DNA of 64,000 nt from an uncultured Planctomycetota bacterium (GTDB lineage Bacteria > Planctomycetota > Planctomycetia > Gemmatales > Gemmataceae). Positions 2,580-11,066 of this stretch are shown here, one piece after another. Under the pieces are notes generated by a model. The model was not told the DNA's origin. It made no database searches and was given only the letters and a program-made list of their open reading frames with translations. Position numbers and translations under genes: made by a program. The DNA is taken from positions 544,001 to 608,000 of the forward strand of contig CAWKHF010000006.1 of assembly GCA_963849325.1 (NCBI GenBank), given 5' to 3'. The stretch's first letter is position 1; every line of letters starts with the position of its first letter.

Positions 2580-4738
2580 CGGCCTGGTGGACGGTTTCAT
2601 CCGCAGGTTCTTCACCAGGAACGCCCACTGGTCGGCCACCTCCTCGATCAGCTTGGCCGTCGGCTTGCCGGCGCCGTGGCCGGCGCGCGTCTCGATGCGG
2701 GCCAGCACCGGCGCGTCGCCGGCCTGGCAGTATTGCAGCATGGCGATGAACTTGAAGCTGTGGCCCGGCACCACGCGGTCGTCGGTGTCCGCCGTCGTCA
2801 CCAGCGTGGCCGGGTATTTCGTGCCCTTTTTCAGGTTGTGATACGGCGAATAGGCGTACAGCGCCTTGAACTCCTCCGGCGTTGTCCGGCGAGCCGTAGT
2901 CGTCCACCCAGAAGCGGCCGGCGGTGAACTTGTGGAAGCGCAGCATGTCCATGACGCCGACGGCCGGCAGGCAGGCGCCGAACAGGTCCGGCCGCTGCGT
3001 CATGACGGCGCCGACGAGCAGGCCGCCGTTGCTGCCGCCCTGGATGGCCAGGCGATCCGGCCGCGTGTACTTGTTGTCGATCAGCCACTCGGCCGCGGCG
3101 ATGAAGTCGTCGAAGACGTTCTGCTTGCTGCAGCTTCGTGCCGGCCTCGTGCCACTCCTTGCCGTACTCGCCGCCGCCGCGGAGGTTGGCCTGCGCGAAC
3201 ACGCCGCCCATCTCCAGCCAGGCCGCGCGGCTGATCGAGAAAGCCGGCGTCAGCGGGATGTTGAAGCCGCCGTAGCCGTAGAGCAGCGTCGGGTTCGAGC
3301 CGTCCAGCTTGAGGCCCTTCTTCGCGCGTGATGAACATCGGCACCTCGCGTGCCGTCCTTGCTCGTGTAGAAGACCTGCTTGACCTCGTAATCGTCCGGA
3401 TTGAACTTCACCTTGGCCCGGCGGATCAGCTTGCTCTTGCCGGTGACCAGGTCGTAGCGGTAGATGCTCGGCGGCGTGGCGAAGCTGGAGAAGGAGTAGA
3501 ACGTCTCGGTGTCGGTGCGCTTGCCGCCGAAGCCGCTCGCCGTGCCGATGCCGGGGAACTCGACCTCGCGGACGAACGTGCCGTCCAGGGCGTACAGCTT
3601 GACCTGCGTGCGCGCGTCCTTGAGGTAGTGGGCGACGAACAGGTTGCCGACCAGGTCCGACGCCGCTCAGGTTCTCCTTCGCTTCGGGGATGATCTCTTT
3701 CCAGTTCGCCGCGCTCCGGCTTGCGCGTGTCGATGGCGATGAGCCGGCCCTTCGGAGCGTCGCAGGTCGGTCTTGAAGTAGAAGACCGGGCCGTCGTTGC
3801 CGACGAAGCTGTATTCGTTGTCGAAGTCCTCGATGAGGTCGACCGGCATGCGCGTACGGCTCGCCGAGGTCCTTGTAGGTGATGCGGTACTGGTGATTGG
3901 TGCCCTTCCAGATGGTGAGGACGAGATAGCGGCCGTCCTCGGTGACGTGCGTTTGAAAGCCCCAGTCGGGATGGTCGGGCCGGCGGTAGACGAGCACGTC
4001 GTCGGCCTGCGGCGTGCCGAGGCGGTGGTAGTAGACCTTCTGGTTGAGCGTTGACCTTCTGAAACGTCTCGCCGGCCTTCGGCTCGTCGAAGCGGCTGTA
4101 GAAGAAGCCCTTGCCGTCCGTGGTCCAGGACGCGCCGCTGTACTTGATCCACTTCACCTCGTCGGCGAGCACCTTGCCCGTGGCCACGTCGAGGACGTGC
4201 CAGGTCTGCCAGTCGGAGCCGGCCTCGGCGACGCCGTAGGCGAGGTACTTGCCGTCGTCGCTGACCTCCAGGCCCGCCAGGGCGACGGTGCCGTCCTTCG
4301 ACCACTTGTTGGGATCGAGCAGCACGCGCGGCTCGCCGTCGAGCGCGTCCATCGTGTACAGCACGGACTGGTTTTGCAGGCCGTCGTTCTTGGTGTAGAA
4401 GTAGCGGCCGCCGGCCTTGAAGGGGGCGGAGTAGCTTCTCGTAGTTCCACAGCTCGGTGAGGCGCTTGTGGATCGCCTCGCGCTGGGGGATGGCGTGCAG
4501 ATAGGCGAAGGTGAGCTTGTTTTCCTCGGCGACCCACTCGGCCACCTCCGGCGACTTGCGCACGTCGTCTTCCAGCCAGCGGTAGGGGTCGGCGACCTTG
4601 GTGCCGTGGTAGTCGTCGGTATGGTTGATGCGTTTGGTCTTGGGATACGACAATCGCGCTTTCATCGGCCAGAATGGTTGTCATGCTGAACAGTATGCTC
4701 GCGAGGAAGAAAACGCCCCAGGTGTTACGCGGTAACAT
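2571..4738 (-). CDS. Prolyl oligopeptidase (S9A), secreted; split by several frameshifts (probable sequencing errors)
   Basis: [38 protein letters not shown] and [11 protein letters not shown] motifs spread over successive frames; N-terminal signal peptide. Confidence 0.9.
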
Positions 4739-4923
4739 CACAAGCTCCTTTCGCCGGGGGACGGTGTCGTCTGGGGATAGAGTGTATCGAGTCTCTCCTG
4801 TGCCTGCCACGACGAAGCGCGGGAAGGAACAGGACCGCACGTGAGAATCCGGGAACGGAGGGCAGGCATCCCATTGCTACCATGCTGGACGAGGTTATCA
4901 GCGAGGTGTATAAAATTCAGTTA

Positions 4924-5024
4924 GAGGCACTAACCAAATAGGCGAGCGGGGGGCGTAAGCCCCCTGTTGACGGCGAAAAAACAGGGGGCTTACGCCCCCC
5001 GCTCGCCAAAAAGTTACACGCCTC
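4924..5024. mobile_element. MITE with GAGGC terminal inverted repeats and TTA target duplication, carrying a REP-like hairpin
   Basis: tta|GAGGCACTAAC...GTTACACGCCTC|tta; internal GGCGAGCGGGGGGCGTAAGCCCCCTGT / ACAGGGGGCTTACGCCCCCCGCTCGCC. Confidence 0.7.
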
Positions 5025-5158
5025 TTAGATTCAGCGAGACACATGGTCTGTCTGTCCCGACGGAGAACACCGCCCATGATTCGCTTTGCCCGCCCAAACT
5101 TGTCTAACCGTTCTCCCATCATCTCTCCAACGACAGGCAACTCCAGGAGTCTCTCTCC

Positions 5159-7039
5159 ATGCCTATCCACTTCCGTTGCACGAGTTGCGGGCATCTTCTC
5201 TCCATCGGCAGGCGAAAAGCGGGCATCGAGACCGCTTGTCCCATCTGCCGCCATCCGCAAAAGGTTCCCCATCAGACAAATGCGGAGCCGCCCATTAGCT
5301 CTGGACCGGAACGAGCGGCTCAATCTTGCCGCCCGGTGGGTATAGCGGCCCGTTTCGTCAGCTTGACGCTCGGCTTAGCGATACTGGGTTTGCTCGGCTG
5401 GATAATGTGGACTTTCCCCCGTTTTTCGCGTCCGCCCGGTGAGCAACGGCCTCCCGACGATGAACAGCTGGCGAGCTTGGCGCGAATTAATCCTCTATTG
5501 CAACCCGAGGTCGAAGTTTCGCCGAGAAGCCCTCCTGTTCCTTTGCCGACGCGAAGACCGCTTCCGCCTCCGCCTGTTCCTCTCGCCGACGCCCAGAAAC
5601 CACCCTCCGACCCGCCGCCTGCAGTCAGGAAACCGGACAAGCGTCCTCCGCCTGGTCTGCCGAGTCCCGCAAACGATACTCCTAAGAAGAAACCACCTTC
5701 GCCCCCCACGAAGCAGGAAGAGGCCGACGCGATCGGCAACGAACTGCTCAAGGCCGCGCCCGAACAACAAGACGTGTTGTTGGAAAAACTGCGGACAGGT
5801 AAGGGGTCGGAGTACACGCAGGCGCTGGCCGCCGCCATCGGCCGGCTTTCCGGTGCAGCCAAGTCCAGGGCACGCCAGACCCTGGCTGAACGGCTGACGC
5901 GATTTACCTCTCCTACCTTGCTCGCCTACCTCGGGAGCGAAGACGCCGAGCTGCGCCGTGCCGCCGCTCTGGCTCTGGGCATGAAGGACGATAAGGACCA
6001 CATTAGTGAACTAATCGATTTGTTGGAAGATCCCGATCCATCCGTTGTACGGGCCGCTCATGCCTCCTTGAAAAGTCTAACGAGCGCGGATTCCGCCCGT
6101 GGGGCCGAGGCTGTCTCCGAGAAACCTGCCGAGGCGGGGCCGGCGCGAACACCCCCGCCGAGAGAAAAACCCGCGATCCCGCGGCGTCCAACGCCCTCCG
6201 CCGAAGGGGAAGCTCCAGCCACGGATTCGCCGGCGTCCAGGAAGAAGGCGCCAGCAAAGGACGACGACCTGCCGGACGTGGCCCTTGTACCGCCCGAGGA
6301 AACGTCTTCGGAGATGAAAGCCTTTCTCCGCGCCGTTGCCGTTGGCCTTTCCTCCGGGAAAGTTCCCGAACGGATCAAGGCCGCCCGAACGCTGGGCGAG
6401 CTGGGCGAGCAGGCCAAACCCGCTCGCCGTCTGCTCTGTGCCGCCATGCTCGATCCCGTCGCCGCTGTCCGCGTGGCGGCCGCCGACGCCCTCAAGAACA
6501 TCGATCCCAAGATGCACTATCTGGCTGTCGTGCTGGCGACCGAGAGGGTGGGAAGCGGGGCGGACGCTTCCCGAGTTGCCACCCTGCTTGGAAAAATTCA
6601 AAAGCTGGAGGACGATGGAGAGCCACTGGCGCCGCTCGTTGCCTACGTGGTCAAGTTTTCGGCAAGCAATGGGACTAATCACCTTCTCATCACGGCCTTG
6701 ACCACGCTGAGCCGAATCGGCCGGAAGGATTTGTCGTCGTACCGGGTCGTCGCTTCGGCGTTGACGAACCGCGATCCCTTCATCCGGACCATTGCGCTGC
6801 GAGGGTTAGTCCGCATGAAACATGGAAAGCTGGCCGTCTCCAGAATCCTTGCCCTTCTGCGAATCGATCTCCCCGTCAACCGCATTGCCGCGATCGAGGC
6901 TCTGGCAGTTTTAGCCGATGAGAGTACCGAAGAGATCATCGCGGAAGCCATCGCGGCTCAGCGCTACCACCATGATGAAGGAGTCCGCCAAGCCGTCGAA
7001 ACGGCCCTTAACAAACTGGAGAACAAACGAAATCCGTAA
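5159..7039 (+). CDS. Zn-ribbon, transmembrane, Pro-rich linker, HEAT-repeat protein
   Basis: CTSCG...CPICR; hydrophobic segment; HEAT motifs DAELRRAAALALG, DPSVVRAAHASLKSL, AAVRVAAADALKNI. Confidence 0.8.
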   Translation: MPIHFRCTSCGHLLSIGRRKAGIETACPICRHPQKVPHQTNAEPPISSGPERAAQSCRPVGIAARFVSLTLGLAILGLLGWIMWTFPRFSRPPGEQRPPDDEQLASLARINPLLQPEVEVSPRSPPVPLPTRRPLPPPPVPLADAQKPPSDPPPAVRKPDKRPPPGLPSPANDTPKKKPPSPPTKQEEADAIGNELLKAAPEQQDVLLEKLRTGKGSEYTQALAAAIGRLSGAAKSRARQTLAERLTRFTSPTLLAYLGSEDAELRRAAALALGMKDDKDHISELIDLLEDPDPSVVRAAHASLKSLTSADSARGAEAVSEKPAEAGPARTPPPREKPAIPRRPTPSAEGEAPATDSPASRKKAPAKDDDLPDVALVPPEETSSEMKAFLRAVAVGLSSGKVPERIKAARTLGELGEQAKPARRLLCAAMLDPVAAVRVAAADALKNIDPKMHYLAVVLATERVGSGADASRVATLLGKIQKLEDDGEPLAPLVAYVVKFSASNGTNHLLITALTTLSRIGRKDLSSYRVVASALTNRDPFIRTIALRGLVRMKHGKLAVSRILALLRIDLPVNRIAAIEALAVLADESTEEIIAEAIAAQRYHHDEGVRQAVETALNKLENKRNP

Positions 7040-7052
7040 CCGGAGAACAACC

Positions 7053-7920
7053 ATGCGAAGCAAGCTTGCGATCGTGCCTTTCTGTCTGCTGTTGGCGACA
7101 GCCGTGGGAGCCGATGGACCGGAGTTGAAGACGCAGAGGCAGCCGTCTACTGTCCGCCACGGCACAGCTATCGATTTCGTGGATACTCCCGTCGAGGCGG
7201 CGAAGCTGGCCGCCAAGCAGAAGAAACTCGTCCTGGTCGTACACGTGTCGGGCTACTTCGAGGATCCGGACTTCACCTGAAACAACGCCGAGGCGCTCCG
7301 TGTGAACGCTCTAGCCGACCGCACAGTAGGCGAGCTGGTGAACAAGCACTTCATCGCGTCTTTCCAGCGCGTGGGCAGCTTCAAGATCGAGGGCAAGCAG
7401 AAGCAAGGGGGGAACGTGGCAACCTACTTCTGCGCCGGATGGTCGCGTTCTCAACGCCATTGCCGGCCCGGTAGACGCCAGGACGATGCTCGAAGAAACG
7501 CAATGGACGATTCAGAAAACGCGCGATGCGATCAAGGAGAGCAAGGGCAACGCCGACAAGTTCAAGGGGCTGCTGCGGAAATATCATGCCGAGCGGCTAC
7601 AAGACCAGTATGGCGCCCGCGTCACGCCGATCCTGAAGGACCAGACCATGCAGGATCTGAAGACGGCCCTGGCTTACCGGGATAAAGACGGCCGGAAGTT
7701 GGCTCCGGTTCTGCCGCTGCCGCCCATCGAGAACAAGGAAGAAGTGAAGCCGTTGTCCAACCTCGGCAAGACGCACCGGCTCTTGGCGGCGCATGCGGGA
7801 GCGAAGATTGAACAAATCTATGGCGCCGTGTTCCAGGGCATCCTGAACGAGAAGGTGACAACCAAGCCGGTCCAGACGAAGGACCCGTTTCCCTGGCGGA
7901 AAGAGATCAAGACACGTTGA
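7053..7920 (+). CDS. Exported thioredoxin-like protein with in-frame UGA (putative selenoprotein, SelN-like); one probable sequencing frameshift near 7436
   Basis: GGAG-ATG and signal peptide; ...HVSGYFEDPDFT-TGA(7278-7280)-NNAEALRVNAL... continues in frame; YFCA|DGRVLNAIAGPVD after a frameshift. Confidence 0.7.
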
Positions 7921-8107
7921 GATGACGGTGGGATCGGTTACTGACGAGCATCCCGCCAATCATCCACCGCCATCTCATCGCTGTACTCCCGCGAACGGAG
8001 GCCGGCAGCAAACGGCCCATCGCCTGGTTAGCTTCTTGACCTCTCAATAATCGCGCACTGAGCCATCCGCATACGTGGGGGTCGGCCACTTGAACTTCCG
8101 TTTCGGG

Positions 8108-9261
8108 TCAGCGGCGACCTTCGCCATCCTGTCCTCGTCGATCTCGACGCCCAGGCCCGGTCCCTGCGGCAGCGAGGCGTAGCCGTCCTTGTCGATCGAC
8201 CAGTTCTTGCGCCACGCCGGGCGGCATGATGTGGCCGTCGATGTAGCCCTCTTGGATCAGGAACAGCGGAATCGACGCCGAGACGTGCAGGCTGGCGGTC
8301 AGGCCCAATTCGGAGCAGGTGTTGTGCGGGGCCATCGGCACGTAGTAGGCTTCGGCCAGCGCGGCGATCTTCTTGAGCTGGCTGATGCCGCCGCAGTGGC
8401 CGACGTCGGATTGCAAAATGTCGATGGCCTGATTCTGCAGGTAGGGCGATCGACCTCCCAGATGGTGCGGTCGCGCTCGCCGGTGGCCAGCGGCACCTTG
8501 ATGATCTGCTGCAGTTGCTTGAACACCTCGATGTTGCCCGGCACGGCCGGCTCCTCGATCCACATCACGTCATACGGCTCGATGGCGGCGGCGAACTGGA
8601 TGAGCAGCGGCGGCGGCATCGAGCAGTGGGCGTCGAACATGACAGCGCCGTCGGGGCCGACCCGCTTGCGGGTGTCCTGGATCATCTTCACCAGTGGAGC
8701 GATGTCGTGCATGTTGCCGGAGAAGGGATGCGGCCCGCCGGTGCCGACCTTGTGGCGCCTTGGGCGTGGGATACATGCGGATGCGCTCGCGGCACGGGCC
8801 GCCCAGCAGGCGGTAGACCGGCACGCCATGCAGCTTGCCGGTGATGTCCCACAGCGCCATGTCGATGGCCGAAAGCGTGTGGACCATGAACGGCCCGCCG
8901 CGCATGTCGCGGTGCGAGCGGTACAGCTTCTGCCAGAGGTGCTCGATGCGCGTCGGGTTCTCGCCGTCGAGCAGCTCGCAGCAGCGACTCGGCCAGGGCG
9001 CAGGCGACGCTGCGGCTCCAGGCCGGTGATCTCGCCCCAGCCGGTGATCTGGTGGTTGGTCTCGATCTTGACGTAAGCCTTCGGGCCGACGGGAATGGCC
9101 CGCAGGTTGGTGATGCGAATCGAGGAACTGCGGTCTTCGACCTTGGCGGCCGGACCCTCCCCCAATGCCGCCTCCAGTGCCATCCCGCTCGCGGCGACCG
9201 CGCCCACGGTCCCCAGCAGCGTGCGCCGATCGATGCCGCTATCTTTCGTTTGCTCGCTCAT
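8108..9261 (-). CDS. Mandelate racemase/muconate lactonizing enzyme (enolase superfamily) dehydratase with Tat-like signal; frameshifted
   Basis: IDRRTLL Tat motif; GWGEIT, SAIDMALWDITGK, MFDAH, WIEEP, LATGER, GGISQLKKIAALAE, APHN motifs. Confidence 0.88.
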
Positions 9262-9735: not shown

Positions 9736-11066
9736 CAGTAGTTTCCGGTTCGGTCGGAACGACAAAAGGTGTAGAGGGCAATCGCAAGGCTCCTCCTGAT
9801 AATGACTTGTACCACCAAGGACATTTCAGGAGGAAGCCATGCGACACTCGGCAGTATACACTCACCCCCGCCCACGTCCAGGCCCACGCCGCCTAGCGCA
9901 TCCAAAAACATCTCCGCCTGCCAGACCACGGCCGCAAATGCACCAGCCGATACCCTGTGGACCGTCCTCTGCTACGCCGCCAGCCGCATCATCTCCCTGG
10001 CCGCTGCCTGCGCCGCCCTCCGCGATGCTCCCTCCGACAGCGCCGCCCACGATGCCTTGCTGGCCACCCTGCCCGACCTACGCCCAATTACAACGCCGCC
10101 TCAACCGCGCCCTGCAAGGCGACCTGCCCCACGCCTTACGTCGCCATCGCCAACCCCTGGCCATCGACCTCACCCTCATGCCCTACCACGGCAAACCCTT
10201 GCACCAACCCGACGAGATCTATCGCAGCCAGGCCAAGAGTGGCACCAGCCACTTCCACGCCTACGCCACCGCCTACGTCATCCGCAAAGGACGACGCTTC
10301 ACGGTCGCCCTGACGACGGTGGGCCGCCACGATGCCTTACCCGTCGTGCTCAAGCGGCTGTTGCGTGAAGCGGCCCGGGCCGGCGTCCGCCCGCGTTATC
10401 TGCTGTTGGATCGCGGCTTTTGCAGCGTGGACGTCATCCGCTACCTGCAAAACGCCCGCTACGCGTGGCTGATGCCGTTGGTGTTGCGGGGCCGCAAGGC
10501 CGACCACCCCAAGGGGCCATCGGGCAGCCGAGTCTTCGCCGGCCGCAAGCGGAGCGGTTGGGCGGCAGTACACGATGACCAACGCCGGCAAACGTCGGGC
10601 GCGGTTCCGCGGTGTGTATCAAGTGTCGCAACCGGCGGGGCGAGCGTGGACGGCATGGTCGTGAGGCGTTGGTCTATGCCTTCGGTGGGCCGTTGCGTCC
10701 GTCGTCGTATACGTGGGTGAAGGAGACGTACCGGAGTCGGTTCGCCATCGAGACGAGTTACCGGCAGATGCACCAGGCGCGGATTCGGACGTGTACGCGC
10801 GATCCGCTGCTGCGGTTGTTGTACGTGGGGATAGCGTTGCTGCTTGCGTAACGTGTGGGTGTGGTTGCATTGGCAGGTGTTGGCGCGTCGTCAGCGTGGC
10901 GGTCGGCGGATCGACCTGGGGCGTTTGAGCTTTCGCAAGATGCTGGTGTGGTTGCAACACTGGGCCGAAGCCCGTTTGGGAATCCACGATGAAATCGCCA
11001 CGGAACATCGGATGTATGAATGAGTTGGGGCATGGTATCATAATTCGAGATCACCGGAAACTACTG
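9736..11066 (+). mobile_element. ISH3-family (IS4-like DDE) insertion sequence
   Basis: TIR CAGTAGTTTCCGGT / ACCGGAAACTACTG; 5-bp target duplication AGATT (9731-9735, 11067-11071). Confidence 0.88.
9839..11023 (+). CDS. ISH3-family transposase (frameshifted)
   Basis: AIDLTLMPYHG, LLLDRGF and YRSRFAIETSYR DDE motifs across frames. Confidence 0.85.

What the first reader, a model, noticed from the sequence alone, without database searches (positions are those of the whole stretch)
7053..7920. Putative bacterial selenoprotein resembling eukaryotic selenoprotein N (in-frame UGA)
Seen: a signal-peptide ORF stops at TGA 7278-7280 but the frame stays open and gene-like, reading AAKQKKLVLVVHVSGYFEDPDFT*NNAEALRVNALADRTVGELVNKHF. 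From memory, human SELENON reads ...[42 protein letters not shown], and the two align with at most a one-residue gap, with * at the Sec position. A weak hairpin (GGCGCTC-CGTGT-GAACGCT) has its loop starting ~18 nt after the UGA with G second in the loop, which fits the bacterial SECIS rule. Inference: a Sec-containing thioredoxin-fold protein that annotators would split into two or three ORFs, co-transcribed with a membrane HEAT protein.
Basis: partly seen in the sequence, partly recalled or inferred. Interest (0 to 1): 0.78.

Follow-up and report, generated by a model that had tools for sequence, protein, structure and literature searches.

The report
Hidden thioredoxin-fold selenoprotein of a planctomycete
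A gene that annotation cuts in two at a TGA codon really encodes one exported thioredoxin-like protein with selenocysteine at its active site, and it belongs to a large, unnamed bacterial selenoprotein family that may be distant kin of human selenoprotein N.

Summary
An ORF with a signal peptide starts at 7053, meets TGA at 7278-7280 and stays gene-like beyond it. The same TGA stands in the same motif (HVSGxFEDPxxT-U-NNAEALRV) in 43 of 43 matches in related genomes. It also stands at that column in 25 of 25 matches across the phylum, including subgroups only 16-26% identical. Cys-bearing full-length homologues exist. The genome holds selA, selB, selD, tRNA-Sec and a TGA-bearing FdhA. A hairpin follows the UGA with the same geometry as the FdhA SECIS of this genome. 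In divergent subgroups the equivalent hairpin shows compensatory changes.

The second break, near 7432, is an assembly error. Contigs from four metagenome runs carry two more bases (GC) there, which restores the frame.

The fold is thioredoxin-like (Thioredoxin_7/DsbH/UAS type). No Pfam, NCBIfam or PDB sequence match reaches significance, and a 2026 catalogue of 119 prokaryotic selenoprotein families lists no selenoprotein N entry and no T-U-N-N motif.

Kinship to selenoprotein N could not be tested by sequence here. The window's protein lacks the Cys-Sec dyad, the EF-hand and the membrane anchor. A sister subgroup has the dyad, with Arg at +4 and +7 as in the human protein.

Verdict: a genuine new selenoprotein family that works by a known mechanism.

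The parts
5159..7039 (+). Upstream HEAT-repeat protein gene (626 aa). It ends 13 nt before the selenoprotein start.
   Evidence: Pfam HEAT_2 E=1.1e-18 and HEAT E=7.4e-12. tblastn finds it upstream only in L023 (G007) and L024 (G001) among loci L022-L066.
7053..7277 (+). First part of the coding sequence: start codon, signal-peptide-like N-terminus (MRSKLAIVPFCLLLATAVGA...), first strand of the thioredoxin fold, and the motif HVSGYFEDPDFT.
   Evidence: GGAG before the ATG; every orthologue has a hydrophobic N-terminus. No signal-peptide predictor was run, so export is inferred.
7278..7280 (+). In-frame TGA read as selenocysteine (residue 76).
   Evidence: TGA sits at this column in 20 of 20 loci, in 43 of 43 spanning rows and in 25 of 25 spanning rows. 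Cys homologue P0043 reads FTCNNAEALRV.
7287..7315 (+). SECIS-like stem-loop in the coding sequence. Upper stem 7292-7298 with 7304-7310 (one C.A mismatch), loop CGUGU 7299-7303, weak lower stem 7287-7290 with 7312-7315.
   Evidence: RNAalifold. 86.2% of cells are paired in 25 sequences against 36-42% when partners are slid. The geometry matches the FdhA hairpin of this genome. Synonymous variation is lower in codons +1 to +12. It is weak by energy.
7281..7434 (+). Coding sequence after Sec, still in frame 1 (NNAEALRV ... KQGGNVATYFC-A).
7431..7435 (+). Assembly error: two bases (GC of a GCGCGC run) are missing, which shifts the frame.
   Evidence: The alignment to G001 shows TGCG--CCGGA. Contigs of runs X1-X4 put GC in behind 7431, among them an X2 contig with no other difference over 7379-7526.
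7435..7920 (+). Rest of the coding sequence in frame 2 (PDGRVLNAIAGP ... WRKEIKTR) with the stop TGA at 7918-7920. It holds the last strands of the thioredoxin fold and a helical C-terminal domain.
   Evidence: (intact 289-aa orthologue).

Best explanation
One gene (7053-7920, about 289 codons once the 2-nt assembly error at 7431-7435 is allowed for) encodes an exported thioredoxin-fold protein. Residue 76 is selenocysteine, inserted at UGA 7278-7280 by SelB and tRNA-Sec, guided by a small hairpin that begins about 11 nt after the UGA.

Shown:
- The UGA is conserved with an open frame on both sides.
- Cys homologues exist.
- The Sec machinery is present.
- A hairpin is conserved in the place where SECIS elements lie.
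- The fold is thioredoxin-like, with Sec between strand 1 and helix 1, where thioredoxins carry CxxC.

Inferred:
- The protein is exported.
- It acts as a redox enzyme with a single Sec nucleophile (T-U-N-N, no partner Cys in the motif). It would form a selenenylsulfide with a substrate thiol, or a selenenic acid with a peroxide, in the manner of single-Cys members of the same fold class (the CxxS motif of AGR2 is recalled from memory, not from a call). I put about even odds on a thiol-disulfide reductase or isomerase role in the cell envelope. The substrate is unknown.
For: TGA conservation: 20/20, 43/43, 25/25 across subgroups of 16-26% identity. The Sec column is invariant in A5 together with G(-8), D(-5), R(+7) and F(+24).

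Cys at the column: P0043 and 5 of the 19 representatives that cover it.

Gene callers truncate the gene: 118 of 120 hits begin after the Sec codon, and 131 of 150 representatives do not cover it.

Machinery in this genome:
- selB 313.7 bits, selA 286.7 bits, selD 386.9 bits, tRNA-Sec 72 bits with anticodon TCA.
- FdhA with one TGA, and three AhpC/TSA genes with one TGA each.
- selA is over its cut-off in 5 of 5 carrier genomes tested.

Hairpin:
- A8: 86.2% paired against 36-42% slid.
- A7 (divergent subgroups): 95.7% paired, 4 of 7 pairs with changes on both sides, 0 of 500 shuffles reach the covariation score.
- FdhA of this genome has its stem and 5-nt loop at the same distances from UGA.
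- Leu+6 is CTC and Val+8 is GTG in 17 of 17. Normalised codon entropy is 0.46 in codons +1 to +12 against 0.70 elsewhere, one-sided p = 0.025, with related sequences.

Frameshift is an artefact. selA of this genome is also in three frames but in one frame in 8 other genomes.
Against: - The window's own hairpin is weak: -6.6 kcal/mol, z = +1.07.
- Within the close group, covariation does not beat the shuffles: 2 pairs with double changes, reached by 455 of 500 shuffles; score reached by 26 of 500.
- 14 of the 19 full-length representatives have S, A, E, G or L, not Cys, at the Sec column. A redox residue there is therefore not universal in the wider family.
- The model is poor exactly at residues 73-76 (pLDDT under 50).
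- No protein-level or RNA-level data exist.
- No conserved gene neighbour points to a substrate.
- Export is read from the sequence by eye.
Confidence: 0.86

Rival explanations
1. The protein is a bacterial member, or at least a true homologue, of the selenoprotein N (SELENON) family.
For: - The Sec lies in a thioredoxin-like domain, as published for SELENON (passages of PMC8148124).
- The bacterial superfamily has an invariant Arg at Sec+7. One subgroup (L051, L055, L059, L063) has C-U followed by Arg at +4.
- Human SELENON has the motif SCUG with Sec462, Arg466 and Arg469, both Arg being disease sites (passages of PMC8967691, PMC12839072, PMC8842757).
- UAS-type thioredoxin folds are among the structural matches.
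Against: - No sequence test was possible.
- Searches for long relatives with profiles A4 and A5 found none (weak evidence by the tool's own note).
- No PDB sequence hit.
- The window's protein has T-U, Pfam finds no EF-hand, and it has a signal peptide, not a type II anchor.
- Three matching positions are not a statistical test.
- The 2026 catalogue of prokaryotic selenoproteins lists no SelN-like family.
Confidence: 0.3
2. It is a decaying pseudogene: a nonsense TGA plus a frameshift.
For: There are two breaks in 870 bases, and frame 1 gives nonsense after 7434. G007 shares the same 2-nt gap.
Against: - The TGA is conserved in every relative, with both flanks under protein-level conservation.
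- The 2-nt gap is absent from contigs of four metagenome runs, one of them otherwise identical over 148 bases.
- G000 and G007 are few-contig assemblies of 85% and 78% completeness, and essential genes such as selA are also out of frame in G000.
- The C-terminal part is intact in frame 2.
Confidence: 0.03
3. There are two separate genes: a 75-residue secreted peptide that ends at a true TGA stop, and a downstream protein that starts at GTG 7302.
For: This is how gene callers read it (106 of 120 hits start at that GTG). TGA is also the ordinary stop of 5 of 17 orthologues.
Against: - Cys homologues are single polypeptides across the site.
- The two halves together make one thioredoxin fold: strand 1 lies before the TGA and helix 1 after it.
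- The 24 bases between TGA and GTG are conserved as in-frame codons (NNAEALR) in all loci.
- Far more distant subgroups keep the TGA although they lack that GTG.
Confidence: 0.04
4. The UGA is read through by something other than Sec, such as a suppressor, near-cognate Trp or Cys, or a deviant code.
For: None directly. Read-through as such was not measured.
Against: TGA ends many genes here, including 5 of 17 orthologues of this very gene. A complete Sec system and classic selenoprotein genes are present. The alternative residue in homologues is Cys.
Confidence: 0.03

Closest known systems
Thioredoxin_7 (PF13899) / Thioredox_DsbH (PF03190, DUF255) thioredoxin-like domains, e.g. PDB 3ira, 3f9u, 7tkv, 2ju5
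   Different: No member tested reaches Pfam's gathering score, and the window's orthologue gives no hit at all. It has a single Sec in T-U-N-N, not CxxC. It has an extra helical C-terminal domain of about 130 residues.
Human selenoprotein N (SELENON/SEPN1)
   Same: A Sec in a thioredoxin-like domain that faces an oxidising compartment. Arg at Sec+7, and in one bacterial subgroup Cys at -1 and Arg at +4, as in the published human positions. SEPN1 mRNA also has a hairpin (the SRE) just after its UGA (passage of PMC8967691).
   Different: Eukaryotic ER type II membrane glycoprotein with an EF-hand and an SCUG motif. The window's protein has none of these. Its SECIS is of the bacterial in-frame kind. 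Homology is untested.
Trx7/PDZ domain-containing (seleno)protein, NCBIfam NF041199
   Same: A bacterial selenoprotein built on a Thioredoxin_7-type domain, listed in the 2026 catalogue.
   Different: It has a CxxU motif and a PDZ domain. The best score here is 12.3 bits against a cut-off of 300, and only for a sister subgroup.
SECIS of formate dehydrogenase FdhA in the same genome (G000:C10, TGA in ...ARIUHSAS...)
   Same: A 7-bp stem at bases 12-18 after the UGA, a 5-nt loop with G near its start, and the 3' arm straight after. The positions are identical to those of the window's hairpin.
   Different: The FdhA stem is perfect and G+C-rich (the MFE of the whole 54-nt stretch after the TGA is -26.7 kcal/mol). 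The window's stem has a C.A mismatch and is weak.

Membership tests
Bacterial selenoprotein (generic criteria) | In-frame UGA conserved among homologues, with coding conservation on both sides | tested here: met
   20/20, 43/43 and 25/25. Alignments A2 and A5.
Bacterial selenoprotein (generic criteria) | Homologues with Cys at the Sec position | tested here: met
   P0043. P0147, P0171, P0208, P0242 and P0262. However, 14 of the 19 covering representatives have other residues.
Bacterial selenoprotein (generic criteria) | Stem-loop (bSECIS) just downstream of the UGA, with the apical loop about 16-37 nt after it and G in the first two loop bases (rule recalled from the bSECISearch literature) | tested here: met
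   The loop starts 18 nt after the UGA and reads CGUGU. Conservation and covariation. Weak by energy. bSECISearch itself was not run.
Bacterial selenoprotein (generic criteria) | selA, selB, selC and selD in the genome | tested here: met
   selA and selB are split by frame errors of the assembly.
Bacterial selenoprotein (generic criteria) | Selenium shown in the protein | not testable with these tools
   Needs 75Se labelling or mass spectrometry.
SELENON (selenoprotein N) | Cys-Sec dyad in an SCUG motif | tested here: not met
   The window has F-T-U-N-N. Sister subgroup loci L051, L055, L059 and L063 have C-U-T-N. The motif is as published in PMC12839072.
SELENON (selenoprotein N) | EF-hand calcium-binding domain | tested here: not met
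   Pfam finds no EF-hand at E up to 10. The feature is taken from PMC8148124.
SELENON (selenoprotein N) | Type II transmembrane topology in the ER | tested here: not met
   A bacterial protein with a short N-terminal hydrophobic segment followed by small residues, read as a cleavable signal peptide. No predictor was run.
SELENON (selenoprotein N) | Significant sequence or profile similarity to SELENON | not testable with these tools
   No SELENON sequence or profile is on hand. Indirect searches were empty.
SELENON (selenoprotein N) | Thioredoxin-like domain that carries the Sec, with Arg at +4 and +7 | tested here: inconclusive
   Thioredoxin fold. Arg+7 is invariant, and Arg+4 occurs only in the C-U subgroup.
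Pfam Thioredoxin_7 / Thioredox_DsbH | Score at or above the gathering cut-off (27 bits) | tested here: not met
   No hit for P0001 or P0003. 20.3 and 19.3 bits for L055.
Pfam Thioredoxin_7 / Thioredox_DsbH | Same three-dimensional fold | tested here: met

The most novel reading that the evidence does not exclude
The Planctomycetota superfamily uncovered here, with Sec invariant, is the bacterial counterpart of the thioredoxin-like domain of eukaryotic selenoprotein N. Its subgroups read T-U-NNA, L-U-SAG, T-U-SAA and C-U-TNAR, and more than 1,900 sequence clusters belong to it, nearly all annotated as truncated hypothetical proteins. The C-U-TNAR subgroup would be the closest form. A bolder extension follows: the hairpin just after the UGA of SEPN1 mRNA (the SRE) would be a relic of a bacterial in-frame SECIS.
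Probability: 0.35. Interest if true: 0.85.

Novelty: new variant of a known kind. Interest (0 to 1): 0.62.

Why it matters
Selenoproteins are systematically lost in annotation. Here a whole family is on record almost only as fragments that start after the Sec codon: 1,936 representative clusters at E up to 0.001, and 1,213 proteins at the 90% level. The family has no Pfam or NCBIfam model. A 2026 catalogue of 119 families lists no selenoprotein N entry and no T-U-N-N motif, and none of the Pfam or NCBIfam models it cites hits this protein.

Naming it would correct thousands of gene models in soil and rhizosphere planctomycetes and add a single-Sec thioredoxin-fold enzyme to the bacterial selenoproteome.

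If the link to selenoprotein N holds, it would give a bacterial model for a human disease protein whose catalytic chemistry is still unclear. That model would be tractable for expression, structure and enzymology.

Tried and rejected
- **Family libraries.** Pfam and NCBIfam on the window's reading, on the intact orthologue and on seven sister-subgroup proteins gave nothing over cut-off.
- **PDB by sequence.** One protein and two profiles gave only chance-level rows.
- **Search for long relatives such as SELENON.** The first try, with A4, searched 784-2235 aa, a window too high for the purpose. The second, with A5 made of rows under 300 aa, searched 512-2000 aa. Both were empty, and the tool calls this weak evidence.
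- **ESM Atlas.** The natural Cys homologue P0043 gave only 'hypothetical protein' clusters and a 0.77 lead to Thioredoxin_7.
- **Gene neighbourhood.** 42 flanking ORFs from six of the twelve stretches fetched showed no shared partner (kinase-FGE, ATP synthase, cytochrome b/Rieske, two-component system and others). The other six stretches were not scanned.
- **Promoter and terminator scan of 4800-8200.** No + strand site.
- **Sequencing runs.** No RNA holder was listed. The six DNA holders share only 5-9% of the sampled words.
- **One alignment for all subgroups' hairpins.** Rejected, because the stem lies 5 nt further downstream in subgroups B, D and F, and the loop length differs in subgroups C and E. 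They were counted apart or only folded.
- **A Sec76-Cys127 selenenylsulfide.** Considered but not claimed. Cys127 lies at the end of strand 3, next to the strand 3-4 turn in the model, and the model's coordinates could not be measured.
- **Literature.** Searches found no paper in the held library that reports a bacterial selenoprotein N relative or this family. A 'hypothetical' selenoprotein candidate in Table S9 of PMC4807772 could not be matched to it or told apart from it.

Full report
**What is in the sequence**

The window is G000:C6:544001-608000. An ATG at 7053 lies 6 nt after a GGAG and 13 nt after the stop of a 626-residue HEAT-repeat gene. It opens a frame that begins with a signal-peptide-like segment and meets TGA at 7278-7280.

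That is 18 nt after the UGA, with G second in the loop.

Two things need correcting. Frame 1 stays open until 7685 but turns to nonsense after ...NVATYFCA. The sensible continuation (PDGRVLNAIAGP...) is in the next frame and runs to a stop at 7918-7920.

**The second break is an assembly error**

The closest intact orthologue (locus L024, 289 codons) reads TGC GCA CCG GAC where the window reads TGCG--CCGGA. G007 has the same gap. Both G000 (14 contigs, 84.7% complete) and G007 (8 contigs, 78%) look like long-read assemblies.

In G000 selA lies in three frames and selB in two pieces. selA is in a single frame in the eight other genomes where it was found.

Contigs from four soil or rhizosphere metagenome runs carry two extra letters (GC) behind 7431. 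The depths with the insertion are X1 3.2 of 3.2, X2 2 of 2, X3 18.1 of 28.2 and X4 5 of 14.1. The X2 contig has no other difference over 7379-7526. With GC restored the text is TTC TGC GCG CCG GAT, which reads F C A P D.

No difference at 7278-7280 appears among the 40 rows of differing letters shown. A further 126 rows were not shown.

**The TGA is a conserved codon, not an accident**

- A six-frame search of 61 related genomes found matches in 29. All 43 rows that span residue 76 contain exactly one TGA.
- In 20 of 20 fetched loci it lies inside HVSGxFEDPxxT-U-NNAEALRV.
- G000 itself has two further paralogues with the same TGA, at C6:177916 and C12:862312.
- A profile search of 401 genomes spread over the phylum found 18 carriers. 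All 25 rows that span the site contain one TGA.
- These include subgroups only 16-26% identical to each other, with other local motifs: K-T-U-NNALQLR, R-T-U-NNAQAFR, G-L-U-SAGHSLR, L-T-U-SAAHAMR and F/Y/H-C-U-TNARLAR.
- In the superfamily alignment the Sec column is invariant, together with G(-8), D(-5), R(+7), F(+24), an Asn, a Gly and a His.

**Cys homologues, and how databases hold the family**

Of the 120 best of 1,213 database hits, 118 begin at query residues 82-107, after the Sec codon. Of these, 106 start at the GTG eight codons after it. One more aligns only after the site. The single hit aligned across it, P0043, has Cys (FTCNNAEALRV).

In the exhaustive representative search there were 1,936 hits at E up to 0.001. 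Of the 150 listed, 131 do not cover the Sec column. The 19 that do carry S (6), C (5), A (4), E (2), G (1) and L (1).

So there is a Sec/Cys pair. The wider family also contains members without a redox residue there, which weakens any claim that all members are enzymes of one kind.

**Sec machinery**

G000 has:
- selB (313.7 bits), selA (286.7 bits for the best piece) and selD (386.9 bits);
- a tRNA-Sec (72 bits) with anticodon TCA;
- a formate dehydrogenase alpha subunit with one TGA (...ARIUHSAS...) and three AhpC/TSA-family genes with one TGA each.

selA is over its cut-off in 5 of 5 carrier genomes tested, and in 3 of 5 non-carriers. The trait is therefore necessary for the family but does not depend on it.

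TGA is also the ordinary stop of 5 of 17 orthologues of this gene. The lineage has not reassigned the codon.

**The SECIS**

RNAalifold on 20 close sequences gives a 7-pair hairpin that starts 11 nt after the UGA. Its energy is poor, at -3.28 kcal/mol.

On 25 close sequences (A8), an 11-pair version is paired in 86.2% of cells, against 36-42% when the partners are slid. Covariation does not exceed the shuffles: 2 pairs with double changes, reached by 455 of 500 shuffles; score reached by 26 of 500.

The window's own 43 nt fold no better than shuffles (z = +1.07).

Three comparisons lift it:
1. In the divergent subgroups B, D and F a 7-bp hairpin (GAGAGC...GCUCUC and variants) lies 17 nt after the UGA. 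It is paired in 95.7% of cells, 4 of 7 pairs have changes on both sides, and 0 of 500 shuffles reach the score. Subgroups C and E have their own perfect or near-perfect hairpins at the same place.
2. The FdhA gene of this same genome has its stem, 5-nt loop (GGUCU) and 3' arm at exactly the same distances from the UGA as the window's hairpin.
3. Synonymous variation is lower in codons +1 to +12: normalised codon entropy 0.46 against 0.70 elsewhere, one-sided p = 0.025, from related sequences. Leu+6 is CTC and Val+8 is GTG in 17 of 17.

In the metagenome contigs the 37 bases 7270-7306 pile up to depths of 316 and 212, against 20-37 and 2-10 in the two bins before and 76 and 27 in the bin after. 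This fits nucleotide-level conservation.

**What the protein is**

The AF2 model of the intact orthologue (pLDDT 74.3, pTM 0.78) has this order of elements: strand 59-66, helices 78-99, strands 100-109, 122-127 and 132-138, helix 143-164, then a helical C-terminal domain. The Sec lies in the loop before the first of these helices. The model is poor at residues 73-76.

By sequence there is no significant Pfam, NCBIfam or PDB hit for the window's kind. Sister subgroups give sub-threshold Thioredoxin_7 and DsbH hits.

All orthologues start with a hydrophobic N-terminus behind a GGAG-type site, which I read as export. No predictor was run.

Gene neighbours differ from locus to locus. The HEAT gene is upstream only in the two nearest relatives. 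Context therefore gives no substrate.

**Mechanism, with its limits**

Shown: a UGA that must be decoded for the fold to be complete, the machinery to decode it as Sec, and a hairpin in the SECIS position.

Inferred: an exported redox protein that uses one Sec (T-U-N-N, with no second Cys in the motif) as the nucleophile.

**Comparison with what is known**

Table 1 of a 2026 review lists 119 prokaryotic selenoprotein families or subfamilies, nearly all with a Pfam, NCBIfam or CDD identifier. I read section 7, parts 1 and 2, of PMC13188914. It has no selenoprotein N entry and no T-U-N-N motif. None of the Pfam or NCBIfam models hits this protein. The CDD-only entries could not be scanned here.

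Eight literature searches found no report of it in the held library. Table S9 of PMC4807772 lists a 'hypothetical' Sec candidate in a planctomycete that I could not identify.

**Selenoprotein N**

The published defining features are: a type II ER membrane glycoprotein, an EF-hand, and a thioredoxin-like domain with SCUG. These come from passages of PMC8148124, PMC12839072, PMC8967691 and PMC8584023. The window's protein does not meet them. No SELENON sequence could be compared, so membership is not supported.

What remains is a lead. Human Sec462 is preceded by Cys and followed by Arg466 (+4) and Arg469 (+7), both disease sites. In the bacterial superfamily Arg+7 is invariant, and the C-U subgroup also has Arg+4. 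SEPN1 mRNA has a hairpin just after its UGA. That is suggestive and no more.

**Verdict**

This is a genuine selenoprotein gene of a large family that is unnamed and almost wholly mis-annotated. It works by the known bacterial mechanism. The frameshift is an artefact. The link to selenoprotein N is open.

Noticed in passing
G000:C12:1294158-1295519 and C12:1295614-1297495; window 3426-4665 (-) and 8299-9261 (-): Many genes of this assembly are out of frame. selA matches in three adjacent frames and selB in two pieces. In the window, overlapping ORF pairs that read like one peptidase gene and one enolase-superfamily gene (family names judged by eye, not scanned) are also broken. This points to an indel-prone, probably long-read, assembly.
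   Followed up: partly
G000:C10:540688-543804; C12:837719-838102; C5:286607-286957; C13:54056-54409: Other selenoprotein genes of the genome: FdhA with TGA in ...ARIUHSAS..., and three AhpC/TSA-family genes with TGA in RWUPFC, SYUGPC and LCUINC. Each is followed by a hairpin.
   Followed up: partly
G000:C6:177916 and G000:C12:862312: Two paralogues of the window's gene in the same genome, both with the TGA. The first is intact (about 340 codons, the commoner long form). The second has a long N-terminal extension and a frame break in its C-terminal part.
   Followed up: partly
window 7270-7306: Metagenome contigs pile up on the 37 bases that hold the Sec codon and the hairpin: summed depth 316 and 212 in runs X3 and X4, against 20-37 and 2-10 in the two bins before and 76 and 27 in the bin after. 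Many loose ends continue into other family members' sequence. Many relatives share this DNA stretch nearly letter for letter.
   Followed up: no
window 7150-7170 (residues STVRHGT): Most orthologues have a Cys a few residues before the conserved G-T of the mature N-terminus (CGxxGT). The window and G007 have Arg there and G001 has Cys. A second, non-universal Cys might partner the Sec in some members.
   Followed up: no
loci L026, L030, L034, L037, L039: In 5 of 17 orthologues the gene's own stop codon is also TGA. The same mRNA then carries one UGA read as Sec and one read as stop.
   Followed up: no
window 9839-10720 (+): A 293-residue ORF downstream that looks like a transposase, by eye only. 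It was not scanned.
   Followed up: no
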